Shown here piece after piece: positions 926 through 18,709 of a stretch of DNA of 64,000 bases. Each line of letters begins with the position of its first letter. Positions within the stretch are counted from its first letter, which is position 1. A program made the position numbers and the translations under genes. The DNA is from Thermoanaerobaculia bacterium. GTDB lineage: Bacteria > Acidobacteriota > Thermoanaerobaculia > Multivoradales > Multivoraceae. The notes under the pieces are model-generated. The model was not told the DNA's origin, made no database searches, and saw only the letters and a program-made list of their open reading frames with translations. Location: NCBI GenBank assembly GCA_963664405.1, contig OY761158.1:448001-512000 (forward strand). The letters are read 5' to 3'.

Positions 926-1668
926 GAAGGCACAGCGAGAAAGTCGAGGTTGAGCGAAGGTTTCTGAAGCTTTGAGCATCCCCTATACCAAGAGCCCTCC
1001 GCGGAAGACCGCTGGGCAAGTCGAATCAACGGAACTGGAGGTAGGGGATGAAGAACAGAACGTTTCGTACCGCGCTCGGTTGTCTGTCGGTCTGCGCTTT
1101 GCTGGCCTCGGCCGCAGCTCCCGCTCACGCCGGGCCCGGAGAGCGCCGGCTCGATCTCGAGCAGGGCCTCAAATCAGAATCGCTCACGCCGGTACCGCAG
1201 GCCGAAGAGGCGGGTGGTGAGAACAGCGAACCGAGCAAGGCCCTCCGAGTCGAGGAGTTTCGCCTCCATGAGGCCGCCGAGGCCTATTCGCGCTCAGAGG
1301 CGGGGGTGGTGTTGATGGCTGCGAGAAAGCGCATCCCGTTGGCTGCGAGCGCAGTTTCCGGGATGGAGTGAGCTGAGGGCTTCGCGACCGCGGGAAAGCT
1401 AGGCCTTCTTCAGGAAGGGCGGCATCATCCCGCCGGAACGGCGGTCCGGGTGCGTGGTCCCGGCGGCGTGTTTGCGGTCGGAAGAGATGCGTGAGTCGGT
1501 GTAGGGCTTTGCAGTGCGGGCTCTGCTCTGATAGAGCAGGCCGACCAGAGACGGCGAGAGCCCGGGAAAGCGAAGTAGAAAACGCCCCGGGCTCTGCCCC
1601 AAACCGCAGCATTAGCTGCGCTTGCAGTATGGCAGAGAGTCGGGGTCGTCGTCGAATGGGAGGCGACG

Positions 1669-2064
1669 ATGCGACCGGACTACCGACTCTTCGACTGTGC
1701 TCGATGCCGTCGGCGTATCTCGCTGTGCTCGCACTGTGACCGTGGCCAGCGTTACTGCCGGGCTTGTGCTCTGGTGGCTCGTCGGGAATCGACTCGGGCG
1801 GCCGGCCATCGGTACCAGCGAAGCCTCCGAGGTCGGCATTGTCATGCCGCCCGTCAGGCCCGCTACCGTCGGCGCCAGCGCGAGCGGGCAGAGAAAGTGA
1901 CGCATCAGGGTACCCCAGGCGGTACTTCGGGGAGGACACTGTGTCGGATCGAGACTCCGAGGCGCGAAGTGCGCTACGACCCGAGGAATCCGCGATGCAT
2001 GCAGTGTGGAGAGGCCTGCCGAGAGTTTGTGCGAACGAGCTTTCGTCGTTGCCGACGGAGATAG
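1669..2064 (+). CDS. Cys-rich, basic putative Zn-finger accessory protein of IS21 element 1
   Basis: CARC-x6-CSHC-DRGQRY-CRAC, Arg-rich helix, KVTHQG, C-terminal CMQC-x3-C. GGAGG RBS before ATG 1669. Clear homologue at the same position in element 2. Confidence 0.8.
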   Translation: MRPDYRLFDCARCRRRISLCSHCDRGQRYCRACALVARRESTRAAGHRYQRSLRGRHCHAARQARYRRRQRERAEKVTHQGTPGGTSGRTLCRIETPRREVRYDPRNPRCMQCGEACREFVRTSFRRCRRR

Positions 2065-2068
2065 GGGC

Positions 2069-3577
2069 GTGATCGACGCACAGCTGCGCGGGGAGATCCG
2101 TCGTCTGTTCCTGGTCGAGAAGTGGAAAGTCGGCACGATCGCTCGACAGCTACAGCTGCACCCCTCAACCGTGCGCCGGGCGCTGGAGAAGTCCGGCGTG
2201 CTACCCCAGCAGCGACGAGGGAGGATGATCGATCCTTACCTGCCGTTCATCGAGCAGGTGCTCGGGACCTACCCACGACTGCCGGCGAGCCGTCTCTACA
2301 CCATGGTGGTGGAGCGCGGCTATCCAGGAGGCCCGGATCAGTTTCGCCACCTGGTGGCCTCGATGCGACCGAAGCCCCAGCGCGAGGCGTTTCTCTCGCT
2401 GCGCATGCTGCCAGGAGAGCAGGCGCAGGTCGACTGGGGCCACTTCGGTCGGCTCCGCGTCGGCCGGGCACATCGTCGGCTCTATGCCTTCGTCTTCGTG
2501 CTGTCGTTCTCGCGCACGGTCTTCGTGCACTTCACCCTCGACACTCGTCTCGAAACCTTCTTGCACGCTCACCAGCTGGCCTTCCACTACGTCGACGGCG
2601 TCGTCAGGACCGTTCTGTACGACAACCTGCGAACCGCGGTGATCGAGCGGCAGGGAACCGCGGTGCGCTTCCATCCCGTGCTGCTCGATTTCGCCAGCCA
2701 CTACGGCTTCCTTCCCACCGTCGCCGCGGTGGCTCGGGGAAATGAGAAAGGCCGCGTCGAGCGCGCAATCCGCTTCCTGCGAAGCTCGTTCTTCGGCGCC
2801 CGAACGGTGAGCGATTTGGATCGTCTGAATCGGCAGGTCCTGGAATGGTGCCAGAGGTCGCAGCGCAGACCCTGGCCGCAGGACCGACAGCGAACCGTGA
2901 AAAGCGCCCTGGCCCAGGAACGACCTCGACTGCTTGAGCTTCCCGGAGACGACTTCGAAACCGACCTGCGACTGGAGATCAAGGTCAGAAAGACGCCGAT
3001 CGTGCGCTTCGACCTCAACGACTACTCGGTGCCGCACAGTCATGTGCAGAGGACCGTCACGCTCCTCGCCAGCGAGCATCGGGTGCGGATCCTCGATGGC
3101 CAGGAGCTCCTCGCCGAGCACCCTCGCTCGTACTCCCGGGGCGAGCAGATCCTCGATCCTCAACACCTCGAGGAGCTCCTCGCTCACAAACGCAGGGCCC
3201 GACGACACCGGGGCTTCCATCGGCTGTTTTCCGCTGTGCCTCGATGCGAAGAGCTGATGCAGCAGCTCGCCGAGCGAGGCGAGAACCTCGGAACGCAGAC
3301 CGCCGGCCTGCTCCGACTCCTGCGCCAGTACGGCCCCCAGCGACTCGACAAAGCCGTGCGCGAAGCGCTCCTGAACCACGCACCGCGATTCCAGTCCGTC
3401 CGGCTCCTACTCGAACGGCACCAGCGCGGCCTCGGTCAGCCCCCGGCTTTACCGGTGCCGCTCAGCCAGGAGCTCCAACAGCGAGATCTCTCCGTGAGAC
3501 CGCACAACCTCGAGGACTACGACCAACTTGGAGGCAACGACGATGGCCCGACCCAGGAAGAGTCCAACGATCCCTGA
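2069..3577 (+). CDS. istA: IS21-family DDE transposase IstA
   Basis: N-terminal HTH (IARQLQLHPSTVRR), QAQVDWG, LYDNL, KGRVER DDE motifs, C-terminal FDLNDYSVP. GTG 2069 chosen as start. Confidence 0.95.
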   Translation: MIDAQLRGEIRRLFLVEKWKVGTIARQLQLHPSTVRRALEKSGVLPQQRRGRMIDPYLPFIEQVLGTYPRLPASRLYTMVVERGYPGGPDQFRHLVASMRPKPQREAFLSLRMLPGEQAQVDWGHFGRLRVGRAHRRLYAFVFVLSFSRTVFVHFTLDTRLETFLHAHQLAFHYVDGVVRTVLYDNLRTAVIERQGTAVRFHPVLLDFASHYGFLPTVAAVARGNEKGRVERAIRFLRSSFFGARTVSDLDRLNRQVLEWCQRSQRRPWPQDRQRTVKSALAQERPRLLELPGDDFETDLRLEIKVRKTPIVRFDLNDYSVPHSHVQRTVTLLASEHRVRILDGQELLAEHPRSYSRGEQILDPQHLEELLAHKRRARRHRGFHRLFSAVPRCEELMQQLAERGENLGTQTAGLLRLLRQYGPQRLDKAVREALLNHAPRFQSVRLLLERHQRGLGQPPALPVPLSQELQQRDLSVRPHNLEDYDQLGGNDDGPTQEESNDP

Positions 3578-4337
3578 CGAACCACTACGAGAGCTCGCCC
3601 GATCCCTCGGCTTCTACGCCCTCGTCGACGACTGGGGCACCTACCGAGAACAGCCCTGGCTCGAACAGCTGCTGCGCAAAGAAGAGGCCGAGCGCAAACG
3701 GCGCAGCCTCGAACGGCGCATCCGCACCAGCCGCGTCGGGCTCTTCAAGAGCATCGCCGACTTCGACTTCTCCTGGCCCCAGCGCATCGACCGCGAGCAG
3801 ATCCAGGATCTGCTCACCCTCCAATTCCTCGACGACATCACCAACGTCATCCTCCTCGGACCCAACGGTGTCGGCAAGACCATGATTGCCAAGAACCTCC
3901 TCTACCAGGCGCTGCAACGAGGGGCCACCGCCAGCTTCGTCACCGCCTCCGACATGCTCAACGATCTCGCCGTCCAGGAAACCCCCTCGGCGCTCCAGAG
4001 AAGGCTCTCCAAATACACCCGACCCTCGCTTTTGGCAATCGATGAGCTCGGCTATCTCTCCTACGACCACCGCCACGCGGATCTCCTCTTCGAGGTCGTC
4101 TCCAGGAGATACGGCAACAAGCCCATTCTTCTCACCACCAACAAGCCCTTCGCCGAATGGGCCGAGGTCTTTCCCAACGCCTCCTGCGTCGTCACTCTCG
4201 TCGATCGACTCACCCACCACGCCGAGATCGTCAAGATCGAGGCTAACTCCTATCGCCGCAAGGAGGCCAAGGAGGCTGCTGAAAAAAAGGCCAAGGACCG
4301 CGCCAAAAGGCGGAGCGCAGCACGACGACGCTCATGA
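3543..4337 (+). CDS. istB: IS21 AAA+ helper ATPase IstB
   Basis: Walker A GPNGVGKT, Walker B LLAIDELGY, TTNK, DRLTHH; overlaps the end of istA. Confidence 0.95.
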   Translation: MARPRKSPTIPDEPLRELARSLGFYALVDDWGTYREQPWLEQLLRKEEAERKRRSLERRIRTSRVGLFKSIADFDFSWPQRIDREQIQDLLTLQFLDDITNVILLGPNGVGKTMIAKNLLYQALQRGATASFVTASDMLNDLAVQETPSALQRRLSKYTRPSLLAIDELGYLSYDHRHADLLFEVVSRRYGNKPILLTTNKPFAEWAEVFPNASCVVTLVDRLTHHAEIVKIEANSYRRKEAKEAAEKKAKDRAKRRSAARRRS

Positions 4338-4675
4338 CCCGAAGCCACTATCGGCGCCAGCTCCTCCGCCTCTATCGACTCCTTCCCGACACCCCGCACC
4401 GCTTCCACCACGGCGACCGCGTCATCGTCGACCAGCTCTTCGACCAAGACCTGCCTCTCACCGTCCTCCAGGCCGCCCTCCTCCTCGGCTCCGCCCGACG
4501 CGCATGCCGAGATCCGCGCCTACCAAAGCTCCAGCCCATCCGATCCCTCGCCTACTTTCTCCCCATCCTCCGAGAACTCCCCACGACGCCACCCCCCGAA
4601 GGGGTACCTCGACTATCTGCGCCACACCCTGAGTCACGCCTCGCGGGGACAAAAAACCGACTCGCAGCCAACTAA
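4334..4675 (+). CDS. Small accessory protein downstream of istB (DnaD-like motif; probable frameshift near 4601)
   Basis: ATGA overlap with the istB stop. Y-x5-LY..PDTP..D..IRSLAY pattern is shared with the equivalent ORF in element 2. Confidence 0.75.
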   Translation: MTRSHYRRQLLRLYRLLPDTPHRFHHGDRVIVDQLFDQDLPLTVLQAALLLGSARRACRDPRLPKLQPIRSLAYFLPILRELPTTPPPEGVPRLSAPHPESRLAGTKNRLAAN

Positions 4676-4850
4676 GTGCGCTTTCTCGTAGCCGGTAACA
4701 GGTGGCAGCCGCCGCGGCCGCCGAGGCCACTCCAAGGCGCCACGGCTTCGGACGGTGGCTCAAGAAGCACTGGTACGTTCCTGTGCTGGTAGGCGCCGCC
4801 ATCGGCTTTGCCGTCTCCGATGACAGCGACGATCCGAACGAGATAGACGA

Positions 4851-5016
4851 CTAGACCAGCGTTTTCAAAGTTCGGGTTGCATAGCTCGAGCTCATTCTGT
4901 TCGCTGGCAAGGCGCGCCGACGCAGGCATATTGGGCAATATGTCGAGGAGGCGCAACGCCGGCAGCGGGCAGAAGGGGCCGAGATATGTACGCGAACTTT
5001 GGAAACGCTGGTCTAG
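4851..5016. repeat. CTAG-bounded 166-bp palindromic element, family A copy 1
   Basis: Arms CTAGACCAGCGTTTTCAAAGTTCG / CGAACTTTGGAAACGCTGGTCTAG. Core is shared with the copies at 25775, 33085 and 45174. Confidence 0.92.
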
Positions 5017-5178
5017 ATCGGCCAGTTGATCGACGGCATTCCCCGCTCCGGCTCTCCCGTACCGGAGCGGGGGCTTCTTTGCCTGCGACGAGCTCCCCAG
5101 GATGAGCGGAATTCCTTCTCCTGCCCAGGCGGTTGGACAGAGCATGAGCCGGGAACGGCTCAAACAGGAGGGCCTGAA

Positions 5179-6291
5179 ATGACCGCAGTCAAAGTGAGTA
5201 AGCAGCCCACGTCCTCTCACCGCGCCCCGCTCAGTTACTCGACCGTTGCCACACTCATCATCGCCGCAGCAATAGCTGTTATCGCCTGCCGGCCCGCTCC
5301 CCCCCAGCAGCTCGAGAGCTCGAGCGGCAACGGACTCGACATAGAGAAGGTGAGACTTGAGGCTCAGCAAGCCCAAGCTGCAGCCGACCAGGAACGTGAT
5401 CGCGAGGCCTTGGCACGGCAAGCTCTCGCGGAGCGCGAACAGCGGCTCGCCGAGGAAGAACGCGCCCTCCAGACCGAAAAGCAGCAGCTTCTCGAGCGCC
5501 AGGCAATCGCCAAACAAGAAGAGGAGCTCGCTGCGCGCGAGGCCACGGTTCGGGAGCGCGAGCTGCGTCTCGAACGTGAGCAACGGCAGGCGGCCGTCGA
5601 AGCCGAACGGATCAGGCTGGAGGAGGAGCGCAGGATCGAGCTCGAGGCCTCGGAGGCGGCTGATCTGGAGGCGGAGCGTCGAGAGCAGCTAGCCGGCGAG
5701 AGCGCTACCATGTTTTCATCTGAAGCGCAGGATCCTCCCGAGCCGATCAACGTCGAAGTGACTCTCGACGTCGGCAGCGTGCTCGAGGTCGAGGTTCAAG
5801 AAACGCTGTCGAGCGCCTACGCCCGCGTCGGAGATACCTTCTCCACCCGCGCGGCCAGAGACCTCTACAACGAAGATGGCGTCCTGGCTATCCCAGCCGG
5901 CACCGCCATCCTCGGACAGGTCACCGAAGCCAGGCCACTGCGGCGGGTGGGGGGTCAAGCGGCGCTCGGATTCGAGCTCACCCACGTAATCTTGGCCAAT
6001 GGCGATCAAGTCGCGATCCGCGCGTCCTTCGTCGAGTTGGGCGACAACAACAAGAAGGACAAGAAAAAGATCGCGATCGCCGCCGCCGCGGGTGCCGTGC
6101 TCGGCGGCATCCTGGGACACGACGCAGGTGGCGCCGCGGTAGGCGCCGCGGCCGGTGCCGCAGTCGGGACCACAGTCGTCGCGACCTCAAAAAGCGAGGA
6201 TGTCGAAATCTCCCAGGGGCAGATCCTTGCCATTCGCCTGGAAGAAGTGGTGACAGTGACCACTCAGACCGGCGGTTTGGCCCCGCGCTGA
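5179..6291 (+). CDS. Membrane-anchored/lipoprotein with coiled coil, VirB10/TrbI-like beta domain and glycine zipper
   Basis: AGGAG RBS before ATG 5179; hydrophobic segment ending IAC; E/R/Q-rich coil; LSS..ARVGDTF, IPAGTAILGQV; GAVLGGILG..GAAVGAAAGAAVG. Confidence 0.75.
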   Translation: MTAVKVSKQPTSSHRAPLSYSTVATLIIAAAIAVIACRPAPPQQLESSSGNGLDIEKVRLEAQQAQAAADQERDREALARQALAEREQRLAEEERALQTEKQQLLERQAIAKQEEELAAREATVRERELRLEREQRQAAVEAERIRLEEERRIELEASEAADLEAERREQLAGESATMFSSEAQDPPEPINVEVTLDVGSVLEVEVQETLSSAYARVGDTFSTRAARDLYNEDGVLAIPAGTAILGQVTEARPLRRVGGQAALGFELTHVILANGDQVAIRASFVELGDNNKKDKKKIAIAAAAGAVLGGILGHDAGGAAVGAAAGAAVGTTVVATSKSEDVEISQGQILAIRLEEVVTVTTQTGGLAPR

Positions 6292-6313
6292 GGTGGCGTG
6301 CCCTCGGCCGGCC

Positions 6314-6790
6314 CTACGACATCAGGCCGATCAGTCTCGCCCAGATCGCCACGCCGCCCCAGATAGCCATCGAAAGCACCGCCACTGCCTTGGGCAAGAT
6401 GCTTCCATGCCTGCCTTTCTCGGCAAGCGCGACCCGACGGCGAATCGTAAAGGTGAAGACCACTCCCGCGGCCATCAACTGCATCTTCCACCAGAAAAAG
6501 GGGCTGTAGTACTGCTTGAGGGCGAGCGACATCATCATCGGGATGCCGGTCGCGAGCAGAACGAGAAAGCCCCCGATCATCCATTTCTCTGCTTCGCGGG
6601 CCAGCTCCGCCAGGGGGCGGCTGGTCAGCCCGCGGCCGAGCATTCGAACGTCGACGATCAGAATGGCGCCGGTGAAGATAACTATAGCCACCAGATGGAT
6701 GCACTGAACAATCGGCGACGCCCAGGTCCTCTCCAAAAAGAAACTGCTGATCCCGAGGTCCTGCATCCACTCGAAGAACGGTAGCAACAT
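6314..6790 (-). CDS. Four-TM membrane protein (DUF6644-like)
   Basis: P.VQCIHL, DVRMLG, TG..M, FWWKM and SMAIW..GRLI-type motifs; paralogue of the adjacent gene. Confidence 0.75.
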   Translation of the reverse strand: MLLPFFEWMQDLGISSFFLERTWASPIVQCIHLVAIVIFTGAILIVDVRMLGRGLTSRPLAELAREAEKWMIGGFLVLLATGIPMMMSLALKQYYSPFFWWKMQLMAAGVVFTFTIRRRVALAEKGRHGSILPKAVAVLSMAIWGGVAIWARLIGLMS

Positions 6791-6803
6791 TACGCTCGCT
6801 CCC

Positions 6804-7334
6804 CTATCCGCCCAGATTAAGGTCTTTCCACCATTGTGGAACGAGCCCGCTGTAAGCCATTAGCCGCCCGGTCACCACGACTCCAGCCCACAACACCAGG
6901 GAGAAGACTCCAGCCAGCTGCGCGCCGAGGGGCGGTTTAGCGGAAGTGTCCCAGGAGGCAACCGAGCGTTCAGTCGTGTAATGGAAGACCATCATATTGA
7001 TTCCGGCAAGAACGATCATGCTGCTCTTGAGCCAGAAGTAAAAATTCGTGTAATAGACCATCGGCTTGCTGTACAGCAGCAGGCCGCCGGTGATTAAGCT
7101 GATCGCGAAGCCGGTGAGCGCCCAGGGAAAGAGACCCTTCGGAATGTCAGAGACCGAAACGCGCTTCAGCGCCAGACCTACCAGTCGCAGATCCCAATAG
7201 GCGATCAGACCCGCAAACAGGCACATGCTGACCACATGAGCGGTCAGCAGCATGGGATAGGCATTGAGCGACTCCCGCAGCGCTATGCTCGAGGGAAGGG
7301 TATCCGCCCACTCGAACAACGGCCGCAGACTCAA
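6804..7334 (-). CDS. Four-TM membrane protein (DUF6644-like)
   Basis: LRES..YP..LTAHV, DLRLVG, ITGGLL, FWLK, SLVLWAGVVVTGRLMAY; probable TTG start at 7334. Confidence 0.75.
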   Translation of the reverse strand: MSLRPLFEWADTLPSSIALRESLNAYPMLLTAHVVSMCLFAGLIAYWDLRLVGLALKRVSVSDIPKGLFPWALTGFAISLITGGLLLYSKPMVYYTNFYFWLKSSMIVLAGINMMVFHYTTERSVASWDTSAKPPLGAQLAGVFSLVLWAGVVVTGRLMAYSGLVPQWWKDLNLGG

Positions 7335-7375
7335 ACCTTCATGCTCCAGGGAGTGATCAAGAACAGGCCCTAGCC

Positions 7376-7891: not shown

Positions 7892-7999
7892 ACTTTACCT
7901 CCGCGGAAAACGGGCACAGCACTCTGCATCCGAAGGCACCACTACGGGAAAGAAAGTCTCCGGGAAGGGGCTGAACCTCCTCCTGTGGGAAGGTTTCTT

Positions 8000-8434: not shown

Positions 8435-8549
8435 TGAATTGTCCCTCTTGTCGTTGTGCCAGGACTTAACGTCCGATTTGCACCTAATCACGGCATCCAA
8501 TTTCCAATAGCCTAACATCTAAACGGCGGTATCCCTATGTGAGTACAGG

Positions 8550-9404: not shown

Positions 9405-9637
9405 CGTGCCTCCAGATCTACTCTCTTCAAGATTGAATATCAGCAACTCGGACAAGGCCCGCGAGCATCTGAAGAGCAGTGCCTCGCGCGGGGCGACCCT
9501 AGAGAGCCCCCTTTTCGGCCCAATCAAAAACAATACCCCATACTACCTACAAGACGTTGCTACGGCTAGCCTTTGTTTCAAAGCTACCTCCGCCGCCCGC
9601 TCCGGCGCTCGAGCTCCTCGCCGGCGCTATCTCGTTA

Positions 9638-10920: not shown

Positions 10921-11048
10921 CACATAGCCTCGGGCGGCAATCATCTTACTCGACACAATGCGGCCGTCGTCCCTTGACCTTTGCTATGGTTCTCGTCGAC
11001 CTCGCTAAAACACGGAATCTCGCTTCAGGACCCAGCAGGAGGGGTGAA

Positions 11049-13178
11049 ATGCGCTCGATTGTTTTCACTGCAGTGGTGATCGGACTGGTAGTGGGTGGCT
11101 GCGGCACCGCTAACGAAGAGAGCTCTGGAGACGAAGAGCTCGGCGCTCAGGTCTCGATCGTCGGCGCGGAACGCCTGGTGGCGGCGGATCAAGAGCCGCA
11201 CAACTGGCTCACACACGGGCGCACCTACGACGAGCAGCGCTTCTCACCCCTGGACCAAATCAACGAAGGCAACGTCGGACAGCTCGGCCTGGCGTGGAGC
11301 TACGATACCGGCCAGCATCGCGGGCACGAAGCAACCCCGATTGTGGTCGACGGAGTGATCTACCTCACTGCCGCCTGGAGCATCGTCCACGCCATCGACG
11401 CCCGCAGCGGTGAGGCGATCTGGACCTACGATCCCAAAGTGCCGGGAGGCTACGCTCGCTGGGCTTGCTGCGATGTGGTCAACCGTGGAGTCGCAGTCTG
11501 GGAAGACAAGGTCTACGTCGGCGCTCTGGACGGACGCCTCATCGCCCTGAATGCCGCCAGCGGCGAGGAGATCTGGTCAGTACAGACCACCGATCCACAG
11601 CGGCACTACACCATCACCGGAGCGCCGCGAGTGGCCAAGGGCAAGGTGGTCATCGGCAATGGCGGAGCCGAATACGGCGTCAGAGGCTACATCACCGCCT
11701 ACGACGCCGACAGCGGTGAGGAGGCGTGGCGATTCTGGACCGTCCCTGGAGACCCGTCGCTACCCTTCGAGCACGAGGAGCTCGAGGCGGCGGCGGCGAC
11801 CTGGACCGGAGAGTGGTGGAAGGTCGGCGGCGGCGGCACCGCTTGGGATTCGATGGCCTACGACCCGGAGCTCGAGCTCATGTACGTCGGAACCGGCAAC
11901 GGCTCGCCGTGGACCCGCGTTCACCGCAGCCCCGACGGCGGCGACAATCTCTACCTGTCGTCGATCCTGGCGCTCGACATCGACAGCGGCAAGCTGGCCT
12001 GGCACTACCAGACCACGCCTGGCGACAACTGGGACTTCACCGCCGTACAGCCGATCACGCTGGCGGAGCTCGAGATCGACGGCACTCGTCGTAAAGTTCT
12101 CATGCAGGCGCCGAAGAACGGCTTCTTCTACATCCTCGATCGCGCCACCGGCGAGCTGCTCTCAGCCGAAAAATATGTTGAAACGACCTGGGCCTCGCAC
12201 GTCGACATGGAGACCGGCCGTCCCGTCGAGACTGCCGGTGGCGACTACCTAGACAAGCCCAAGGTGGTCTTACCCGGCCCCTTCGGAGGACACAATTGGC
12301 ATCCCCAGTCCTACAGCCCCGAGACCGGCCTGATGTATCTCCCGGCCCGCGAAGCCTCGTTCATCTACCCACTGAACAGAGAGTTCGAGTACAACGAGCC
12401 CGGCTGGAACCTCGGCCTCGACATGAGGGGGCTCCCCCGCCACCTGGTCGAAATGGAGCAGCCCGTCCCGACGGGTCATCTTCGCGCCTGGGACCCCGTC
12501 GCCAGCAAGGTGGTGTGGGATGTCGAAGTACCCGGCTCGGTCAACGGCGGAGCCCTCTCGACAGCCGGCAACCTCGTCTTCCACGGTACCTCGGAAGGAG
12601 AGTTCGCTGCCTTTGCCGCCGACTCGGGCAAGGAGCTTTGGGAGGTTCGACTCAACATCGGAGTAATCGCAGCGCCAGTCACCTACACAGTCGACGGCGA
12701 GCAGTACGTCGCGATTCTCGCCGGCTGGGGCGGCGGCGCCATCATCGGATTCGACGTCGCCATCACGGCGGCCTATTCCTTCGAGAACGTCGGCAGGCTC
12801 TTCGTCTTCAAGCTCGGCGGCACGACGCCGATCCCCCTGGTCAAGGAGCGCAATCTCGAGATCCCCGAGCAGCCGCCGCTGACAGCCTCGGCGGCGACGA
12901 TCGAGAACGGCCAGGGCCTCTTCCACGAATACTGCGCCTTCTGTCACGGACTTCTCGCCCACAGCACCGGGGTCATCGCCGATTTGAGGATGATGGATGA
13001 AGGGGCGCACGCCACCTTCGACGCCGTGGTGCTCGATGGACTGATGGAGTCGGAGGGGATGGCGAGCTTTGCCGACGTGCTCGACAAAGATCAAGCGGAC
13101 GCCGTCCATGCCTACATCGTCTCGCGCGCGCGGGAGGACCGCGAGCTCCAGGCCACCACCGATGCAGGTGGCCTGTGA
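11049..13178 (+). CDS. Type II quinohemoprotein PQQ-dependent alcohol dehydrogenase with C-terminal cytochrome c
   Basis: Vicinal CC in WACCDVVNRG, Trp-docking propeller repeats, GAEYGVRGY, DNWDFTA, C-terminal CAFCH; lipoprotein-type signal. Confidence 0.93.
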   Translation: MRSIVFTAVVIGLVVGGCGTANEESSGDEELGAQVSIVGAERLVAADQEPHNWLTHGRTYDEQRFSPLDQINEGNVGQLGLAWSYDTGQHRGHEATPIVVDGVIYLTAAWSIVHAIDARSGEAIWTYDPKVPGGYARWACCDVVNRGVAVWEDKVYVGALDGRLIALNAASGEEIWSVQTTDPQRHYTITGAPRVAKGKVVIGNGGAEYGVRGYITAYDADSGEEAWRFWTVPGDPSLPFEHEELEAAAATWTGEWWKVGGGGTAWDSMAYDPELELMYVGTGNGSPWTRVHRSPDGGDNLYLSSILALDIDSGKLAWHYQTTPGDNWDFTAVQPITLAELEIDGTRRKVLMQAPKNGFFYILDRATGELLSAEKYVETTWASHVDMETGRPVETAGGDYLDKPKVVLPGPFGGHNWHPQSYSPETGLMYLPAREASFIYPLNREFEYNEPGWNLGLDMRGLPRHLVEMEQPVPTGHLRAWDPVASKVVWDVEVPGSVNGGALSTAGNLVFHGTSEGEFAAFAADSGKELWEVRLNIGVIAAPVTYTVDGEQYVAILAGWGGGAIIGFDVAITAAYSFENVGRLFVFKLGGTTPIPLVKERNLEIPEQPPLTASAATIENGQGLFHEYCAFCHGLLAHSTGVIADLRMMDEGAHATFDAVVLDGLMESEGMASFADVLDKDQADAVHAYIVSRAREDRELQATTDAGGL

Positions 13179-13225
13179 GGGTTCTTCCCTTCCTTCGACG
13201 AGGCCGCTGAAACGAGACCCGAGTC

Positions 13226-14953
13226 ATGTCCGATCTTCGCTACGAGGTCCACGATCGACCGCCGCATCTGCTCTCGGCCGCTCTAGGCTTTCAGGTCGTC
13301 GTTCTCATCCTCGCCGGCATCGTCCTGGTCCCGGTGATCGTCCTCAAAGCGGCCGGAAGCGCCCCCCCCATCATCACCTGGGCCGTCTTCGCGGCGCTCT
13401 TGGTCAGCGGCCTGATCACGATCGTGCAGGCGAGGCCGATCGGACCTGTCGGCGCCGGCTACGTCCTCTTCATGGGCACCAGCGGCGCCTTCATCGCGGT
13501 TTCGACGGCGGCGGTGAAAGCCGGCGGCCTCGCTCTTCTTGCGACCCTGGTCGCTCTCTCGTCGCTCATCCAGTTCGCCTTCTCGGCACGCCTCGCACTC
13601 TTCCGCAAGGTCATTACGCCAACGGTCGGCGGCACGGTCATCATGTTGATCGCCGTCGACGTGTTTCCTATCTGCTTTGGCATGCTGACGACCGTCCCCG
13701 AGCATGTCGATCCGGCGTCCAACGCCGGTCCGCTCACCGCAGCAGCTACCTTTGCCGTCATTCTCTTCGTTTCTCTCTTAGGCACCGGAAAGGCCAGGCT
13801 CTGGGCACCTCTCATCGGCGTCATCGTCGGTTGCAGCGTCGGCTATGGAGTAGGCCTGTTCAACCTCGAGGCGGTGCGTAGCGCCCCTTGGATCGGCATC
13901 CCGTCCGCAGGGTGGCCGGGCCTCGATCTCTCTTTCGACGCGCGACTCTGGAGCCTGCTTCCCGCCTTTCTCATCGTCACCATCGTCGGCGCAATCGAGA
14001 CCTATGGCGACGGCATCGCCATCCAGAGGGTCTCGAAGGGTCGTCGCGAGCCGGTGGACTTCAAGGCTGTGCAGGGCGCCGTCAACGCTGACGGGGTCGG
14101 CAATCTACTCTCCGGGCTGGCCGGAACTCTTCCAAACACCACCTACTCCACCAGCATCTCGGTCGTCGAGCTCACCGGTGTCGCCGCGCGGCGTGTTGGC
14201 ATTTACGCCGGAGCGCTGATGGTGGCTTTCGCCTTCCTGCCCAAGGTCTCGGCCCTGCTCCAGTCGATTCCCGACGCAGCCGCGGGGGCCTACATCATGA
14301 TCCTCCTGGCCCTTCTCTTCGCCCAGGGTCTACGTCTGGTATCGGACGGCGGTCTCTCCTACGAGAACGGCCTCGTGGTCTGCCTTTCGTTCTGGATTGG
14401 GACCGGGTTCCAGGGCGGGCTGATCTTTCCCACCCAGATGCCCGAGTGGGCGCACACCCTCCTCGACAACGGCATGACCTCTGGCGGAGTCACCGCCATC
14501 CTTCTCACCCTGCTCTTGTCGATCAAGCATCGTTCCCACGACCGCCTCAAGCTCGAAGCGGCCCCTGCGGCAGTACCGGCGTTACACGATTTCCTCAAAT
14601 CGATCGCCAGCCGAGCCGGCTGGGATCAGACCGCGGTCGACCGACTCCAGCTCGCCGGTGAGGAAGCTCTACTCTTTCTCATCACCAAAGAGGAGGAAGC
14701 GGAGCGAGCCGGCGAGGCAGCAATCGGAGTTTCGGCTCGCGAGTCGGAAGGGGTTATCGAGCTCGAGTTCGCCAGTGGCCCGGGCGCCGCCAATATCGAG
14801 ATTCTGGTCCGCGACCTCGATGATGCGGATCGCGCCCCCTCCGATGACGCAGGACTCCGTATCCTCCGCCATCTGGCTAAAGAACTGCGTCACGAGCAGT
14901 TCCACGACCGCAACTATCTGATGGTCAGAGTGGAGAGCAAGCCGCTGGCCTAG
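13226..14953 (+). CDS. NCS2 (xanthine/uracil) permease with C-terminal RsbW/HATPase-like domain
   Basis: GTSGAF, TPTVGGTVIMLI, VGAIETYGD, ADGVGN..GTLPNTTYS, PK motifs; about 140-aa soluble tail with LAGEEAL and GLRILRHL. Confidence 0.85.
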   Translation: MSDLRYEVHDRPPHLLSAALGFQVVVLILAGIVLVPVIVLKAAGSAPPIITWAVFAALLVSGLITIVQARPIGPVGAGYVLFMGTSGAFIAVSTAAVKAGGLALLATLVALSSLIQFAFSARLALFRKVITPTVGGTVIMLIAVDVFPICFGMLTTVPEHVDPASNAGPLTAAATFAVILFVSLLGTGKARLWAPLIGVIVGCSVGYGVGLFNLEAVRSAPWIGIPSAGWPGLDLSFDARLWSLLPAFLIVTIVGAIETYGDGIAIQRVSKGRREPVDFKAVQGAVNADGVGNLLSGLAGTLPNTTYSTSISVVELTGVAARRVGIYAGALMVAFAFLPKVSALLQSIPDAAAGAYIMILLALLFAQGLRLVSDGGLSYENGLVVCLSFWIGTGFQGGLIFPTQMPEWAHTLLDNGMTSGGVTAILLTLLLSIKHRSHDRLKLEAAPAAVPALHDFLKSIASRAGWDQTAVDRLQLAGEEALLFLITKEEEAERAGEAAIGVSARESEGVIELEFASGPGAANIEILVRDLDDADRAPSDDAGLRILRHLAKELRHEQFHDRNYLMVRVESKPLA

Positions 14954-15045
14954 CCCCAGAAAACGCGCCTTCGGCCCGTTTTCCGGCCCATCCCCGCCTG
15001 AGAACTACTCGCCTGTCCGAATTCTCGGACACGTGTTATCGGCGG

Positions 15046-15399
15046 TCATAAAGTGCGGGATTCCGGCTGTGTAGTGGCGCTTTTGGTTTCATCCTCCTCG
15101 AGAAGGGACCGGTGCCGAAGGAGGATGTAGCGGACGTATTGAGGGTCGAGCTCGTCGTTGGTCAGGGCTCGATGTACGGAGCGGTAGTAGGCAAGTGAGT
15201 GAATCTGCGGCAGCGGATCGGTGCTGAGGCGCCGTCGCAAGGTGGCGAGTCGAATGGCATGGGCAAGCTCTTCGAGGGGGACGTTGGCTTGATAGAGCTT
15301 GTCGGCGATGGCCCAGTCTCGGCGCCGAGGTCTAGACGGGGTTTTAGGAGCGTCGAGGTAGAGGCGGATGAGCTCGGCGCGATACTCCTGTCGGATCAC
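15046..15399 (-). CDS. Small accessory protein downstream of istB (DnaD-like motif)
   Basis: GTGA overlap with the istB stop. YRAELIRLY..PKTP..D.AIA..LY...VP..L..AI.L...IHSLAYY is homologous to 4334-4675. Confidence 0.78.
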   Translation of the reverse strand: MIRQEYRAELIRLYLDAPKTPSRPRRRDWAIADKLYQANVPLEELAHAIRLATLRRRLSTDPLPQIHSLAYYRSVHRALTNDELDPQYVRYILLRHRSLLEEDETKSATTQPESRTL

Positions 15400-16169
15400 G
15401 AGGTCTTCGCACTGCGCCGTCGAGGGCGAGTGCCGCTTCGGCGGGCCGAAGCGCGCTTCTTGGCGTGCTCCTTGGACTCCTTGAGCCGATAGGAATCGCC
15501 CTCGATGTTGACGAGCTCGCAGCGATGGACGAGGCGATCGACGATGGTGACGACGGTAGTAGCGTTGGGGAAGACCTCTCCCCATTCTCCAAAGGACTTG
15601 TTTGTGGTGATGAGAAGGGACTTATTTTCGTACCTGCGGGAAACGACCTCGAAAAGTAGATCGGCGTGGCGCGTGTCGTAGGACAGATATCCGAGCTCGT
15701 CAATGCAGAGCAGGGATGGGCGCGCAAAGAGCGCGAGCTTGCGCTGAAGGCTGGTCGAGGAGTCTTGTTCGGCGAGGGTGTTGAGCAGCTCCGAGGCGGT
15801 GAGGAATCGGGCGGTGGCTCCACGTAGTACGGCTTGATGGGCGAGATTCTTGGCAATGAGCGTCTTGCCGATGCCGTTTGGCCCTATCAAGACAGCGTTG
15901 TGCCCTCGGGCGAGCCACTCGAGCCGAAAGAGATCTTCGATCTGCTCGCGGTCGATCTTCTTGGGCCAATTCCAGTCGAAGTCGGCCAGCGGCTTGAAGG
16001 TGCCGAGCCGGGCCCGACCCAGGCGTCGCTCCAGTCCGCGACGGGCTCGCTCCTGCTCTTCCCAGTCGAGCAGGTCGGGGAGCCAGGGTTGGTTGGCGAC
16101 CTCATCCCAGTGGGCTAGGAGGCCATGGAGTTTCAGGGCTGTGGCACGCTCTTGGTCGGTGTTGTTCAT
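15396..16169 (-). CDS. istB: IS21 AAA+ helper ATPase IstB
   Basis: GPNGIGKT, LLCIDELGY, TTNK, DRLVH. Confidence 0.95.
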   Translation of the reverse strand: MNNTDQERATALKLHGLLAHWDEVANQPWLPDLLDWEEQERARRGLERRLGRARLGTFKPLADFDWNWPKKIDREQIEDLFRLEWLARGHNAVLIGPNGIGKTLIAKNLAHQAVLRGATARFLTASELLNTLAEQDSSTSLQRKLALFARPSLLCIDELGYLSYDTRHADLLFEVVSRRYENKSLLITTNKSFGEWGEVFPNATTVVTIVDRLVHRCELVNIEGDSYRLKESKEHAKKRASARRSGTRPRRRSAKTS

Positions 16170-17665
16170 TCGTCGTCCTCCTCGTCGTTGGGGTTGTCGT
16201 AGTCGGCCAGTGCATGGGGAGTGACCGTGAGCTCCCGGATCCTGGGATCGTCGGGGAGCTGGACAGGCAGCGCGGGTAGGAGTCCCCGCTCGTGGCGCCG
16301 ACGATCGAGGATGAGTCGCACCGCTTCGGGATGCGGGGATCCTTTTTCGAGGGCCTCGTCGATCGCCACTGCAAGCTCCCTGGGTCCACTCTCGGCAAGG
16401 AGCTCGAGGAGTCTGGCGACGGCACTCGAGAGTCGTCTCTGCCGTCGGGCCAGCTCCCGCAGGAGCTCTTCGGCCTGGGGCACCGTACGCAGCAGGTAGT
16501 CCTGGCCGCGCTGTGTACGTGCCTCGCGTTTCTGTCGTTCCAGCTCTTCTAGGTGACGGGGGTCTTCGATGATCTGGCCCTTGTCCCAGGACCTTGTGTG
16601 CTCGGCGATGAGCTGCTCGCGATCGAAGATGCGCACACGCTCCGGGTCTGCGGCGATCTGTAGCGAGCGGGCGATGCGATCATGCGGGATCGAGTAGCGA
16701 TTCGCATCGAAGCTCAGGTAAGGAGTGCGCCGCGTGATCCGCTCGACCCATTCGTGGCAGGGGAAAGGCTGCGCCGGAAGGCTCACGAGATGAGAGCGCT
16801 CCTCGAGATAGGCCTGCTCGACGGTGCGACGCCGGTCCTGGGGCCACGGGCGCTTCATCGCTCGGTCGCGACACCACTCCAGAGCGTCCCGGTTCAGCGC
16901 TTCTCTGTCCCAGGTGCGACGCAGCGGAAAGAAGGAAGTTCTGACAAAACGAATGGCTCGTTCGACGCGACCTTTTTCATTTCCTCGTCTGGGAGCAACG
17001 GGCCTTGGATCAAAGCCGTAGAAGTCGGCGAGCTCGAGAAGCCGTGGATGAAAGCGAATGGCGCTGCGGCGCCGCTCGAGCACAGCGCTGCGCAGATTGT
17101 CGTAGAGGTGGATCTTGGCCAGACCCTCAAAGAAGGAGAAGGCGAGGACATGCCCGGTCAGGAAGCTCGGCAGACGAGCGTCGTAGAAGAAGTGCAGAAA
17201 GAGAGCTCGCGAGTAGCTCAGCACCATGACGAAGGCGTAGAGACGGCGCTCTCCGCCATCGACCTTTCGGGTGCCGAAGTGAGCCCAGTCCACCTGGGCC
17301 TGTTCGCCGGCAAGCGTACGGAGCACAAAGAAAGCCTCAGGCGCCTTGCGGGGGCGCAGGCCGAGCTCGGCAATGCAGTGGCGGAAGTGATCCTCCCCAC
17401 CGGGATAGTCACGCTTCTTGACCATCTCGTAGAGCACGCTCGCCGGCAGCTCCGGGTAGCGCTCAAAGACTTCCTGGATGAAGGGGACGAAGCGATCGAC
17501 CATGGACGCTCGTCGCGGCGATCGAGGCCGGCTCAGCCCTTCGCGTCGAAGGACTCGAGTGACCGTCGAGTGATGGATTCCCAGATGGCGGGCGATCGTG
17601 TTGCGCCGCCAGCCCTCCGACTCATAGAGACGGCGGATCTCGGCGGCGAGCTCGGGAGAGATCAT
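16166..17665 (-). CDS. istA: IS21-family DDE transposase IstA
   Basis: HTH (IARHLGIHHSTV), QAQVDWA, LYDNL, KGRVER; ATG at 17665. Confidence 0.95.
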   Translation of the reverse strand: MISPELAAEIRRLYESEGWRRNTIARHLGIHHSTVTRVLRREGLSRPRSPRRASMVDRFVPFIQEVFERYPELPASVLYEMVKKRDYPGGEDHFRHCIAELGLRPRKAPEAFFVLRTLAGEQAQVDWAHFGTRKVDGGERRLYAFVMVLSYSRALFLHFFYDARLPSFLTGHVLAFSFFEGLAKIHLYDNLRSAVLERRRSAIRFHPRLLELADFYGFDPRPVAPRRGNEKGRVERAIRFVRTSFFPLRRTWDREALNRDALEWCRDRAMKRPWPQDRRRTVEQAYLEERSHLVSLPAQPFPCHEWVERITRRTPYLSFDANRYSIPHDRIARSLQIAADPERVRIFDREQLIAEHTRSWDKGQIIEDPRHLEELERQKREARTQRGQDYLLRTVPQAEELLRELARRQRRLSSAVARLLELLAESGPRELAVAIDEALEKGSPHPEAVRLILDRRRHERGLLPALPVQLPDDPRIRELTVTPHALADYDNPNDEEDDE

Positions 17666-18146
17666 CCCGCGCCCGCCTGCGCACCGGGCGTACTCGGCGC
17701 GATCGCAAGAAGTCGTGGCGGACAATCGGCTCGCAAGGATGGCGGCACAGCCTGCAGAGAAGCTCCTCGTTCCGACCTCCAACGGACAAGCCTTGCAAAA
17801 ACAACGGAAGCGGCGCGGTGGGCCATGACGCCACCGTCGCAGGGCAGCCCCCGGTGCGGCAACTGTGATGCGTCACTTTCTTTGAGCCTTGCTGCTTGCG
17901 ATCTCGATAGGCCTGCTGACGACGAGCATGCAAGCGGCGCCCTCGCGGCGTCTGCTGATAGCGACGCCCGGCCCCGCGAAGGCTGTGGCGCCGAGCCTCA
18001 TCCCGGCACTCCGGCGTGCAATAACGATGGCCGCGATCGCACCAAGAGCAAATGTAGACAGCTTGCCGGCAACGATCGCAAACGAAACGGCGACAATCGG
18101 GACGGCGGCGCACGGCCCAGGCCTCCTTCGGCCTGGACTTCGCCAC
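17622..18146 (-). CDS. Cys-rich, basic putative Zn-finger accessory protein of IS21 element 2
   Basis: CDRC-x6-CSWC-DRGHRY-CTPEC, RGAGRRYQQTPRGR, KVTHH, CRLC-x3-C; homologue of 1669-2064. Start uncertain. Confidence 0.78.
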   Translation of the reverse strand: MAKSRPKEAWAVRRRPDCRRFVCDRCRQAVYICSWCDRGHRYCTPECRDEARRHSLRGAGRRYQQTPRGRRLHARRQQAYRDRKQQGSKKVTHHSCRTGGCPATVASWPTAPLPLFLQGLSVGGRNEELLCRLCRHPCEPIVRHDFLRSRRVRPVRRRARDDLSRARRRDPPSL

Positions 18147-18709
18147 CCGCAGGCGGAATACTCCCTCTTCTGGGGCGTCATACCCCAGGCCTTCCGGCGG
18201 TGGGCGGTCACCTTGCTTGGAGTCGCCCCCGCCGGTCTCCCCATACTCCCACCTGCCACGCTGCTCGCGCGCTCGCGCGCGACGATGATGCTGAAGAGAC
18301 TCTCAGCAGGAAACGCGGTCAGAAAGCCGGGATCGCGCGCTTCTTAAGCGCCGTTGACAACACGCTCCTAGCCTCCAGAAATGATTACTATCATTTCCTC
18401 CGGCTAGTTGCAGTTTGGCGCCGAGGACGGCGCACTCAGGCGTTGATTCCTATTCGCTTCGGAAACGCCGGGGCCGATTCTTCACCGACATCGTGACGAA
18501 TAGCCCTGCACTCTTGTCCTCTCTTGTCCGGATTCGGTCATTCATGATGCTCCTACTGCGGTGCCGCAGCACCTCGCTACGGACCTCATGAATACTCCAG
18601 GCTAAGCGGAATCCCCGGGCCCCCATCCTCGCCGTCTAGCGAGACCCCCTTAGCGAGGTGCTCATGGGAGCCCGGGAACCCACAGCCCGGGCTTGACTCC
18701 TGATCTTGA

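What the first reader, a model, noticed from the sequence alone, without database searches (positions are those of the whole stretch)
1310..18359. Two diverged IS21 elements share a four-gene architecture: Zn-finger ORF, istA, istB, small ORF
Seen: both elements have terminal IRs and 5-bp duplications (GGTGG; ACACG), so both extra ORFs lie inside the mobile unit. The two elements differ in IR sequence and throughout their proteins, yet both keep a homologous Cys-rich ORF before istA and a homologous ~115-aa ORF coupled to istB by a 4-nt overlap (ATGA/GTGA). Established: canonical IS21 elements encode only IstA and IstB. Inference: conservation across diverged elements suggests these are machinery or regulatory components of an under-described IS21 subgroup, not passenger genes. 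This is the best candidate for an undescribed system in the window.
Basis: partly seen in the sequence, partly recalled or inferred. Interest (0 to 1): 0.85.

Follow-up and report, generated by a model that had tools for sequence, protein, structure and literature searches.

The report
IS21 elements with two extra genes
Two active IS21-type jumping genes in this window each carry, besides the usual transposase and helper ATPase, a conserved zinc-ribbon gene in front and a small DnaD-like gene behind, and this unnamed four-gene layout turns out to be widespread in bacteria.

Summary
E1 (1310-4700, +) and E2 (15034-18359, -) are complete IS21-family elements with imperfect terminal repeats and 5-bp target duplications. 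Both are multicopy in the host genome. Each has four coupled genes: a Cys-rich ORF (CYS), istA, istB and a small ORF (SM). CYS and SM are real genes. They are about 40% identical between E1 and E2, have dN/dS about 0.36 only in the annotated frames, have invariant Cys and Tyr columns, and fold confidently. Neither matches Pfam or NCBIfam.

In 80 loci from species-representative genomes, CYS lies directly upstream of istA in 65 of the 73 with enough contig after CYS to judge. IstA proteins of CYS-bearing elements form one supported clade. The two extra genes are separable modules. SM also follows istB in distant IS21 lineages, often as a long wHTH+SM form, and follows an unrelated ATPase in a third element. 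In Proteobacteria a different 70-aa ORF takes its place. CYS also occurs beside ArdC and an IS256-type transposase, and fused to a tyrosine recombinase.

SM is remotely DnaD-like, which is notable because IstB is DnaC-like. Function is inferred, not shown. My literature searches found no description, and ISfinder could not be consulted.

The parts
1305..1309 (.). E1 target-site duplication GGTGG, left copy
   Evidence: the same 5 nt lie at 4701-4705
1310..1349 (+). E1 left terminal inverted repeat. It starts TGT and holds two copies of a GGCTGCGAG-like site.
   Evidence: I3; 32/40 identity to the right end
1669..2064 (+). E1 CYS gene, 131 aa: 3x CxxC zinc ribbon, basic helical hairpin and C-terminal CxxC
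   Evidence: GGAGG lies 6 nt upstream of the ATG
2006..3577 (+). E1 istA, shown as the longest ORF. The likely start is the GTG at 2069, 5 nt after the CYS stop.
   Evidence: (NF033546, 244.8 bits, cut-off 160)
3528..4337 (+). E1 istB (AAA+ helper ATPase)
   Evidence: NF038214, 210.6 bits, cut-off 200
4334..4675 (+). E1 SM gene, ATGA overlap with istB. This copy carries a +1 A near 4599 that changes the tail (113 aa). The majority allele encodes 118 aa and ends 9 nt before the element end.
4661..4700 (-). E1 right terminal inverted repeat
4701..4705 (.). E1 target-site duplication GGTGG, right copy
15029..15033 (.). E2 target-site duplication ACACG
   Evidence: the same 5 nt lie at 18360-18364
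15034..15073 (+). E2 terminal inverted repeat at the istB/SM end
   Evidence: 28/40
15046..15399 (-). E2 SM gene, 117 aa, GTGA overlap with istB. It ends 12 nt from the element end.
15396..16169 (-). E2 istB
   Evidence: NF038214, 218.3 bits
16166..17665 (-). E2 istA, from the start that aligns with relatives (MISPEL...). The frame stays open up to 17782. It overlaps the CYS gene by 44 nt.
17622..18146 (-). E2 CYS gene, 174 aa
18320..18359 (-). E2 terminal inverted repeat at the CYS end
18360..18364 (.). E2 target-site duplication ACACG

Best explanation
E1 and E2 are active members of a distinct, widespread clade of the IS21 family. Its mobile unit is a four-gene operon: CYS, istA, istB and a small fourth gene. 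Both extra genes encode real, selected proteins that travel with the transposition genes. SHOWN: the boundaries, recent transposition, coding status, tight coupling to istA and istB, one IstA clade, and the modular distribution. INFERRED, part 1: CYS is a zinc-ribbon plus basic-helix nucleic-acid-binding subunit or regulator of the recombinase it precedes. It would play the kind of role that small DNA-binding first-ORF proteins play in other IS families. The basis is that it is coupled to istA, also precedes an IS256-type transposase, and is fused to a tyrosine recombinase. INFERRED, part 2: SM is a DnaD-like helical domain that works with the element's AAA+ ATPase at target DNA. The ATPase is IstB here, a DnaC/DnaI-like loader, and an ExeA/TniB-like ATPase in the third element E3. 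SM would act either as an adaptor or regulator of the ATPase or as a link to host replication or repair proteins. The stated confidence is for the shown parts plus 'accessory transposition or regulatory factors, not cargo'. Each specific mechanism alone deserves about 0.3.
For: Mobility. There are 21 uninterrupted full-length E1 copies and 7 full E2 copies in the 6.78-Mb genome. 19 of 21 E1 copies and 7 of 7 E2 copies carry 5-6-bp duplications of varied sequence.

Coding status. E2 was compared with a 94.9% identical copy. There are no indels in either extra ORF. dN/dS is 0.37 for CYS and 0.38 for SM, against 0.11 and 0.15 for istA and istB. Only the annotated frames show excess synonymous change (p 5e-4 and 4e-3). 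The other five frames give w 0.5-1.9. Six Cys columns are invariant in 36 CYS sequences. Seven columns are invariant in 45 SM sequences. AlphaFold2 gives pLDDT 89.6 for SM and 80.7 for CYS.

Linkage of CYS. istA lies directly downstream in 65 of 80 loci from species-representative genomes. Seven of the other 15 have under 200 nt of contig left after CYS. In the phylum sample it is 12 of 20 loci. In 15 elements the CYS stop overlaps or abuts the istA start.

Linkage of SM. SM lies directly after istB in 15 of 17 strong-hit loci. It also follows the ATPase of the non-IS21 element E3.

Clade. 16 IstA rows that include every CYS-adjacent element group with SH-aLRT 99.

CYS and recombinases. CYS lies upstream of a Mutator/IS256-type transposase and is fused to a Phage_integrase domain.

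SM and DnaD. The SM profile matches a chromosomal protein family at hhalign probability 95.5%, E 1.3e-8. That protein matches PHROG 7498 'DnaD-like helicase loader' at E 1.4e-11 over the same region. One long-form third ORF has an N-terminal wHTH that matches PHROG 186 'DnaD-like helicase loader' at E 7.7e-5. Three long forms match HTH_36 below the cut-off. VIA-align gives Z 6.1 (rmsd 3.0, 71 aligned) and Z 5.9 (rmsd 2.4, 66 aligned) to DnaD-domain structures 2zc2 and 2i5u.
Against: No functional data exist. Neither extra gene is universal even inside the clade. Four CYS-bearing rows lack a detected SM (one of them ends at a contig end), and L068 and L069 show no conserved ORF after istB. 33 of 48 loci with a detected istB carry an unrelated 70-aa ORF instead of SM. 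So neither protein can be essential for IS21-type chemistry.

CYS also lies beside ArdC and a TraG-like ATPase in what look like conjugative elements. That fits a general mobile-element function, such as regulation or anti-defence, as well as a recombinase cofactor.

The frameshifted SM allele of the window copy occurs at two sites with different duplications. The tail is therefore dispensable in cis, or is supplied in trans by the other copies.

The DnaD link is transitive. No SM member matches Pfam DnaB_2 or any DnaD PHROG directly. The structural Z values are below the level the tool calls meaningful for helical bundles and tie with AAA+ lid domains at Z 7.1. CYS has no structural or sequence relative of known function.
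Confidence: 0.6

Rival explanations
1. The extra ORFs are element-borne cargo that helps the element or its host without acting in transposition. Examples would be a small regulator or an anti-defence or stress factor shared among mobile elements. They persist because they sit inside successful IS elements.
For: CYS relatives lie beside ArdC (ArdcN 114.6 bits plus zincin peptidase) and a TraG-like ATPase. The fourth-gene slot is filled by unrelated families or is empty. Canonical IS21 needs only IstA and IstB (recalled, and as described in the abstracts listed).
Against: The genes overlap istA and istB by 4 to 44 nt or abut them in 15 elements. The association survives IstA divergence down to 23-27% identity for SM. 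SM follows the ATPase gene in two unrelated transposase systems. CYS is fused to a recombinase. No match in PADLOC.
Confidence: 0.2
2. SM is a negative regulator or immunity factor. It caps or titrates the AAA+ ATPase, for example as a free-standing lid-like helical domain, and so limits copy number rather than promoting transposition.
For: The best structural rows are AAA+ lid domains (Z 7.1, rmsd 3.2-3.3, 76-80 aligned). SM is translationally coupled to the ATPase gene in both IS21 and E3.
Against: Z 7.1 is within the range the tool reports for unrelated helical bundles. The host carries 21 or more E1 copies with an intact SM, so any inhibition is weak. The long forms carry a wHTH, which suggests DNA binding.
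Confidence: 0.12
3. The ORFs are not genes. They are chance open frames in G+C-rich DNA, conserved only because the DNA carries transposase-binding or regulatory sites.
For: The window has many long spurious ORFs in all frames. The 3' end of SM runs into the terminal repeat. RefSeq does not annotate CYS on three named plasmids.
Against: Synonymous excess is specific to the annotated frames. The Cys pattern is invariant across phyla at 34% mean column identity. Hundreds to more than a thousand diverged relatives exist. The folds are confident. No frame-breaking indels occur between E2 and E2b.
Confidence: 0.02

Closest known systems
IS21 family insertion sequences (IS21, IS5376: IstA DDE transposase plus IstB AAA+ helper)
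   Same: istA and istB pass the curated family models. The gene order and overlap, the TGT...ACA ends with repeated sub-terminal sites, and the 5-bp duplications also match.
   Different: There are four genes instead of two, and the length is 3.3-3.4 kb. CYS is coupled to istA and a small ORF is coupled to istB. The structural papers on IS21 seen here (abstracts, passages) describe only IstA and IstB.
DnaD / DnaB_2 (DDBH2) domain proteins and phage 'DnaD-like helicase loader' proteins, which work with DnaC/DnaI-type AAA+ loaders
   Same: SM is a ~90-residue helical domain. Its profile links to a chromosomal family that matches a DnaD-like PHROG. One long form has a wHTH matching a DnaD-like PHROG, and three match HTH_36 weakly. 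SM sits next to a DnaC-like ATPase gene. Structural similarity is weak.
   Different: No direct Pfam or PHROG match for any SM member. SM is encoded inside a transposon, and the short form lacks the N-terminal domain. A role in helicase loading is untested.
Small DNA-binding first-ORF proteins of other IS families, such as IS1 InsA (recalled)
   Same: CYS is a small, basic, Cys-rich protein encoded just upstream of the transposase gene and overlapping it.
   Different: No sequence or fold match to any known family. Of 15 elements, istA lies in the +1 frame relative to CYS in 12 and in the same frame in 3, so I see no consistent frameshift arrangement. CYS also occurs outside IS elements.
TniQ/TnsD-type zinc-finger target selectors that work with TniB/TnsC ATPases in Tn7-like and Tn5053-like transposons (recalled)
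   Same: A zinc-binding accessory protein sits in an operon with a DDE transposase and an AAA+ ATPase.
   Different: No Pfam TniQ or TnsD match for CYS. E1 and E2 insertions show no common target sequence. The gene order differs.

Membership tests
IS21 family | IstA transposase with an rve-type DDE core that matches the family model | tested here: met
   NF033546 scores 244.8 and 233.1 bits (cut-off 160). Mu-transpos_C_2 and rve also match in Pfam.
IS21 family | IstB AAA+ helper ATPase encoded directly downstream of istA | tested here: met
   NF038214 scores 210.6 and 218.3 bits (cut-off 200). PF01695 scores 211 and 204 bits. istA and istB overlap.
IS21 family | Imperfect terminal inverted repeats and short target duplications | tested here: met
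   32/40 and 28/40 identity, against a random maximum of 24/40. Duplications of 5-6 bp occur at 19/21 and 7/7 copies.
IS21 family | Only two ORFs, istA and istB (the canonical description, recalled) | tested here: not met
   There are four coupled ORFs inside the repeats. The extra two are conserved and selected.
DnaD / DnaB_2 domain (PF07261) | Match to the Pfam model | tested here: not met
   No match at E up to 10 for four SM members or the chromosomal relative. PF07261 finds nothing in the own genome but does find the Bacillus and Lactococcus controls.
DnaD / DnaB_2 domain (PF07261) | Remote homology or shared fold with DnaD C-terminal domains | tested here: inconclusive
   The link is transitive: hhalign 95.5% to family A6, and A6 matches PHROG 7498 at E 1.4e-11. 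VIA gives Z 6.1 and 5.9 to 2zc2 and 2i5u, tied with AAA+ lids. No SM member matches a DnaD PHROG directly.
TniQ / TnsD target selectors | Match to the Pfam TniQ or TnsD models | tested here: not met
   CYS has no Pfam family at E up to 0.1. The only TnsD row is a weak HTH match in IstA of E2.
Known anti-phage defence proteins (PADLOC) | Match to any PADLOC model | tested here: not met
   No family at E up to 0.01 for CYS, SM, E3 ORF1 or the long form.

The most novel reading that the evidence does not exclude
IS21-type and related two-component transposons carry their own DnaD-like adaptor next to their DnaC-like ATPase. This would be a miniature primosome-style pair (DnaD-like protein plus DnaC/DnaI-like AAA+). 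It would connect the target-bound ATPase or the strand-transfer product to the host replication or restart machinery. It would also point to a shared origin of IstB-type helpers and phage or plasmid helicase-loading modules. In parallel, CYS would be a new zinc-ribbon domain that different recombinase classes (IS21 DDE, IS256 DDE, tyrosine recombinase) have each recruited as a DNA-targeting or regulatory subunit.
Probability: 0.15. Interest if true: 0.85.

Novelty: new variant of a known kind. Interest (0 to 1): 0.62.

Why it matters
IS21 is a structural model for how a AAA+ ATPase controls a transposase, and that model has two proteins. Here a large, phylogenetically coherent branch of the family keeps one or two further proteins under selection. 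It spans Acidobacteriota, Beta-, Gamma- and Alphaproteobacteria, Myxococcota and other groups. There are 481 or more loci in species-representative genomes and 1,468 SM cluster representatives. One of the extra genes is left unannotated in RefSeq records of well-known strains.

If these proteins act in transposition, the two-protein model is incomplete for much of the family. They would also give new handles on regulation, target choice or coupling to replication. The DnaD-like signal next to a DnaC-like ATPase offers a testable link between transposon helpers and helicase-loading systems.

On the practical side, two unnamed protein families could be given names and profile models, and IS annotation pipelines could be corrected.

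Tried and rejected
1. Complex prediction of IstB (A7) with SM (A4) gave no answer. It says nothing either way.

2. RNA evidence. One metatranscriptome held 6% of the words of E1. Laid on E1, the only identical piece is a 247-nt contig inside istB. The other pieces are diverged relatives, and nothing covers CYS or SM. This is no evidence on expression.

3. Foldseek against the PDB found nothing at E <= 0.001 for either model. VIA-wide for CYS gave a best Z of 2.9. PDB sequence profiles found nothing meaningful.

4. Both Atlas searches returned only unnamed 'hypothetical' clusters.

5. SM was not found in the plasmid collection. The long form was not found in phages.

6. CYS shows no detectable homology to the other Cys-containing first ORFs: E3 ORF1 and the L081 158-aa ORF give hhalign probability under 1%.

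7. The 70-aa proteobacterial fourth ORF is not detectably related to SM.

8. A programmed CYS-IstA frameshift was considered. istA is in the +1 frame in 12 of 15 elements and in the same frame in 3, so there is no consistent signal. I dropped the idea.

9. A target-site motif was considered. The duplications and flanks of 28 copies show no shared sequence by eye.

10. The search for related loci with the SM alignment failed for lack of a conserved 7-10-column stretch.

11. The search for longer SM-containing proteins gave only two hits. One is a truncated IstA-SM fusion.

12. Earlier findings of this scan returned nothing.

13. One search was a mistaken alignment of no use.
Full report
**1. 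What is in the window**

E1 spans 1310-4700 on the + strand. Its 40-nt terminal inverted repeats match at 32/40 positions. GGTGG flanks it on both sides.

E2 spans 15034-18359 on the - strand. Its ends match at 28/40 positions, and ACACG flanks it on both sides. Among 20,000 random 40-mer pairs from the window, the best match was 24/40.

Both elements start TGT and end ACA. E1's ends each hold two copies of a GGCTGCGAG-like site, read directly.

In each element, istA and istB pass NCBIfam's curated cut-offs. NF033546 scores 244.8 and 233.1 bits against a cut-off of 160. NF038214 scores 210.6 and 218.3 bits against a cut-off of 200.

Upstream of istA lies a Cys-rich ORF, here called CYS: 1669-2064 (+) and 17622-18146 (-). 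Overlapping the istB stop by 4 nt lies a small ORF, here called SM: 4334-4675 (+) and 15046-15399 (-).

Identities between E1 and E2 are 40% for CYS, 39% for SM, 50% for IstA and 60% for IstB. Neither CYS nor SM matches Pfam or NCBIfam at E up to 0.1.

**2. Both elements are active and multicopy**

The window lies in a single 6.78-Mb contig. That genome holds 21 uninterrupted full-length E1 copies at 99.9% identity or more, plus one end-truncated copy, one interrupted copy and fragments.

It holds 7 full E2 copies, one of them only 94.9% identical (E2b), plus one E2 copy split by an E1 insertion.

19 of 21 E1 copies and 7 of 7 E2 copies carry a 5-bp direct duplication (one is 6 bp). The duplicated sequences differ and show no obvious common target.

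The window's E1 copy carries one extra A near 4599. This shifts the SM frame after about residue 90. Only 2 of the 21 full copies have it. The other 19 encode a 118-aa protein whose tail (YLDYL) aligns with YVRYI in E2 and YLRYL in a third element. The two frameshifted copies have different duplications. So this allele has moved, or it was helped in trans by the other copies.

**3. The extra ORFs are genes**

E2 and E2b differ at 174 positions. All indels lie in the non-coding leader or are a 3-nt indel in the istB tail.

Nei-Gojobori dN/dS is 0.37 for CYS (27 synonymous, 32 non-synonymous changes) and 0.38 for SM (18 and 21). It is 0.11 for istA and 0.15 for istB.

As a control I applied the same statistic to all six frames of the two regions. 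Only the annotated frames show a clear synonymous excess (p 5e-4 and 4e-3). The mirror antisense frames give w 0.5-0.6 but contain 8-9 stops. The remaining frames give w 0.9-1.9.

Across 36 diverse CYS proteins, six cysteines (CxxC-x6-CxxC-x6-CxxC) and 17 other columns are invariant, and a C-terminal CxxC is nearly so. Across 45 SM proteins, seven columns are invariant.

AlphaFold2 on these alignments gives:
- A five-helix SM domain, pLDDT 89.6, pTM 0.80.
- A CYS model, pLDDT 80.7, with two beta-hairpins followed by a long basic helical hairpin.

**4. How widespread, and in what company**

The word-indexed protein database returned 369 CYS and 472 SM relatives at E <= 0.001. An exhaustive profile search found 1,468 SM cluster representatives at 50% identity, 720 of them at E <= 1e-10.

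*Phylum sample.* I searched 400 other genomes of the host's phylum. CYS occurs in 24 and SM in 28. Both tallies include one unpublished genome, G049; without it the counts are 23 and 27. The CYS profile found nothing in the 9 genomes of the host's own family. Both families are multicopy in several distant genomes. This is the pattern expected of a mobile element.

*Species-representative genomes.* In this collection, 481 of 580 pattern matches encode a CYS relative. I examined the best 80.
- 65 have istA directly downstream on the same strand.
- 7 of the other 15 have under 200 nt of contig after CYS.
- 8 have room but no istA.
- The hosts include Acidobacteriota, Burkholderiales, Rhodocyclales, Methylococcales, Hyphomicrobiales, Myxococcota and others (record titles).
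- Many loci are whole contigs of 3.0-4.7 kb, about the length of one element.

*IstA tree.* A quick maximum-likelihood tree of 29 IstA sequences places all 15 elements with an adjacent CYS in one clade of 16 rows (SH-aLRT 99). The clade also holds one element with only a CYS remnant. The careful tree search did not finish, and no canonical IS21 reference sequence was included.

**5. The two extra genes are separable modules**

*SM.* SM follows istB in 15 of 17 strong-hit loci of the phylum sample. One of the other two ends at a contig end. The other is a 2.7-kb contig with no detectable istB.

Ten of these 15 have no detected CYS (one of them keeps a CYS remnant), and nine of the ten have an IstA only 23-27% identical to E1's. 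In five of them (L077, L078, L079, L085, L091) the third ORF is a long form of 222-312 aa. It has an N-terminal winged-helix region plus a C-terminal SM domain.

The host genome also holds a third element, E3. It has 5 copies and is 3,559 bp long with 25-nt inverted repeats. Its genes are:
- A 212-aa Cys/HTH ORF.
- An rve transposase closest to the IS481 model, at 123 bits and below the cut-off.
- An AAA_22 (ExeA/TniB-like) ATPase.
- An SM homologue that overlaps the ATPase gene.

*CYS without SM.* Inside the CYS clade, four rows lack a detected SM, one of them at a contig end. In L068 and L069, reading the region after istB showed no conserved ORF. Of the 48 loci with a detected istB, 33 carry a different ~70-aa ORF after istB and 3 carry SM. 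12 have none detected, and 7 of those are near contig ends.

That 70-aa ORF is annotated 'hypothetical protein' in Aromatoleum aromaticum EbN1, Burkholderia thailandensis and B. cepacia ATCC 25416 plasmids. It overlaps the istB stop by 4 nt and is not detectably related to SM. In those three records the CYS ORF is intact but has no annotated feature. The plasmid gene table used here is incomplete, so this should be checked in the original records.

*CYS outside IS21.* Of 20 phylum loci, 12 have istA directly downstream. One has a ParB-like gene between CYS and istA. Seven are elsewhere. Pfam scans of the neighbours show:
- ArdC (ArdcN plus zincin peptidase).
- A TraG-like ATPase.
- A Mutator/IS256-type transposase directly downstream.
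- One ORF in which the CYS domain is fused to a Phage_integrase domain.

A sister IS21 lineage has five genes: a Cys-rich ORF, a ParB-like gene, istA, istB, and (in L081) SM.

**6. What the proteins resemble**

*SM.* The SM profile weakly matches a single-copy chromosomal protein of 226-272 aa in 6 of 9 genomes of the host's family and in one genome of its order. In the two loci I read (L076, L089), a gene resembling a biotin-protein ligase gene (my reading, not scanned) lies directly upstream of it. Profile-profile comparison gives probability 95.5%, E 1.3e-8, over 81 columns.

That chromosomal protein matches PHROG 7498, 'DnaD-like helicase loader', at E 1.4e-11 over the same region. The N-terminal region of one long form matches PHROG 186, also 'DnaD-like helicase loader', at E 7.7e-5. 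Three long forms match Pfam HTH_36 below the cut-off, at E 0.001-0.007.

VIA-align places two DnaD-domain structures at Z 6.1 (rmsd 3.0, 71 aligned of 75) and Z 5.9 (rmsd 2.4, 66 of 77). AAA+ lid domains rank above them at Z 7.1, and all of these values are in the range the tool warns is common for helical bundles.

No SM member matches Pfam DnaB_2 or a DnaD PHROG directly. I therefore treat 'DnaD-like' as a supported lead, not as family membership. IstB belongs with the DnaC/DnaI loaders; weak sub-threshold NCBIfam rows for DnaC and DnaI appear. DnaD-type proteins work with such loaders in Firmicutes and phages (recalled). That is why the pairing is interesting.

*CYS.* CYS has no relative of known function by any search used here.

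**7. Most likely mechanism**

*Shown.* CYS, istA, istB and SM form one tightly coupled gene string inside the repeats. In 15 elements CYS ends within, or 3-5 nt before, the start of istA. SM overlaps the stop of the ATPase gene.

*Inferred for CYS.* CYS is a zinc-dependent nucleic-acid-binding subunit or regulator of the recombinase it precedes. The basis is its basic helical hairpin, its position, its recurrence with three recombinase classes, and the fusion to a tyrosine recombinase.

*Inferred for SM.* SM acts with the AAA+ ATPase at target DNA. It would modulate ATPase assembly or link the complex to host replication or repair factors. The basis is that it follows the ATPase gene in two unrelated transposase systems, its DnaD-like signal, and the DNA-binding wHTH of its long forms.

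Neither protein can be required for IS21 chemistry as such, because relatives lack one or the other.

**8. Novelty**

Six full-text searches returned nothing on extra ORFs in IS21 elements: search listings, and passages. ISfinder and TnPedia are not in that library and could not be consulted.

I rate this a new variant of a known kind. It is a large IS21 clade with conserved, unnamed accessory genes, one of which links a DnaD-like domain to a DnaC-like transposition ATPase.

Noticed in passing
own genome G000:C1:537661-541219 (L025:361-3919), not in the window: A third mobile element, E3, is present in 5 copies at 99.2-100% identity, with 25-nt inverted repeats. Its genes are a 212-aa Cys/HTH ORF, an IS481-like rve transposase (below the cut-off), an AAA_22 ATPase and an SM homologue. 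This four-gene layout parallels E1 and E2 but is built on different enzymes.
   Followed up: partly
L058, L093, L099 (G164:C5; the record title reads MAG Acidobacteriota bacterium): A genome placed in a different family of the same phylum carries E1 (three copies of its CYS ORF matched) and, directly next to one copy, a partial E3, with protein matches 100% identical to the window's genome. This means very recent transfer, a much closer relative than the family label suggests, or mis-binning.
   Followed up: no
own genome G000:C1:2641757-2650333: Nested insertion: an E1 copy with duplication CCAGG sits inside the leader of an E2 copy, upstream of its CYS gene. That E2 copy is further broken, with about 1.85 kb of other DNA between its pieces. 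A second E1 copy (6339246-6345987) is interrupted by 3.35 kb that matches none of E1, E2 or E3.
   Followed up: partly
L059 (G010) and L081 (G062): A sister IS21 lineage has a ParB-like gene (HTH_ParB above the Pfam cut-off) between a Cys-rich first ORF and istA. L081 also has SM after istB, which gives five genes.
   Followed up: partly
L072:4952-5980 (G318): An ORF fuses the N-terminal CYS domain to a Phage_integrase (tyrosine recombinase) domain.
   Followed up: partly
L076, L089, L090 (genomes of the host's family and order): A single-copy chromosomal gene of 226-272 aa has an SM-like N-terminal domain that matches a 'DnaD-like helicase loader' PHROG. In L076 and L089 a gene that looks like a biotin-ligase gene lies directly upstream (my reading, not scanned). 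It may be an unrecognised DnaD-type replication protein in this Gram-negative phylum.
   Followed up: partly
window 11390-11721: Three direct repeats spaced 153 nt apart lie inside the 734-aa ORF 10974-13178. This suggests a protein with tandem ~51-residue repeats.
   Followed up: no
window 4851-5016: A 27-nt inverted repeat, 93% complementary with a 112-nt spacer, lies just outside the right end of E1.
   Followed up: no
L096-L098 (NC_006823, NZ_CP013412, NZ_CP007745): On three named plasmids, the gene table shows no feature over an intact CYS ORF upstream of istA. In the B. cepacia record, istA itself is also missing from the table.
   Followed up: partly
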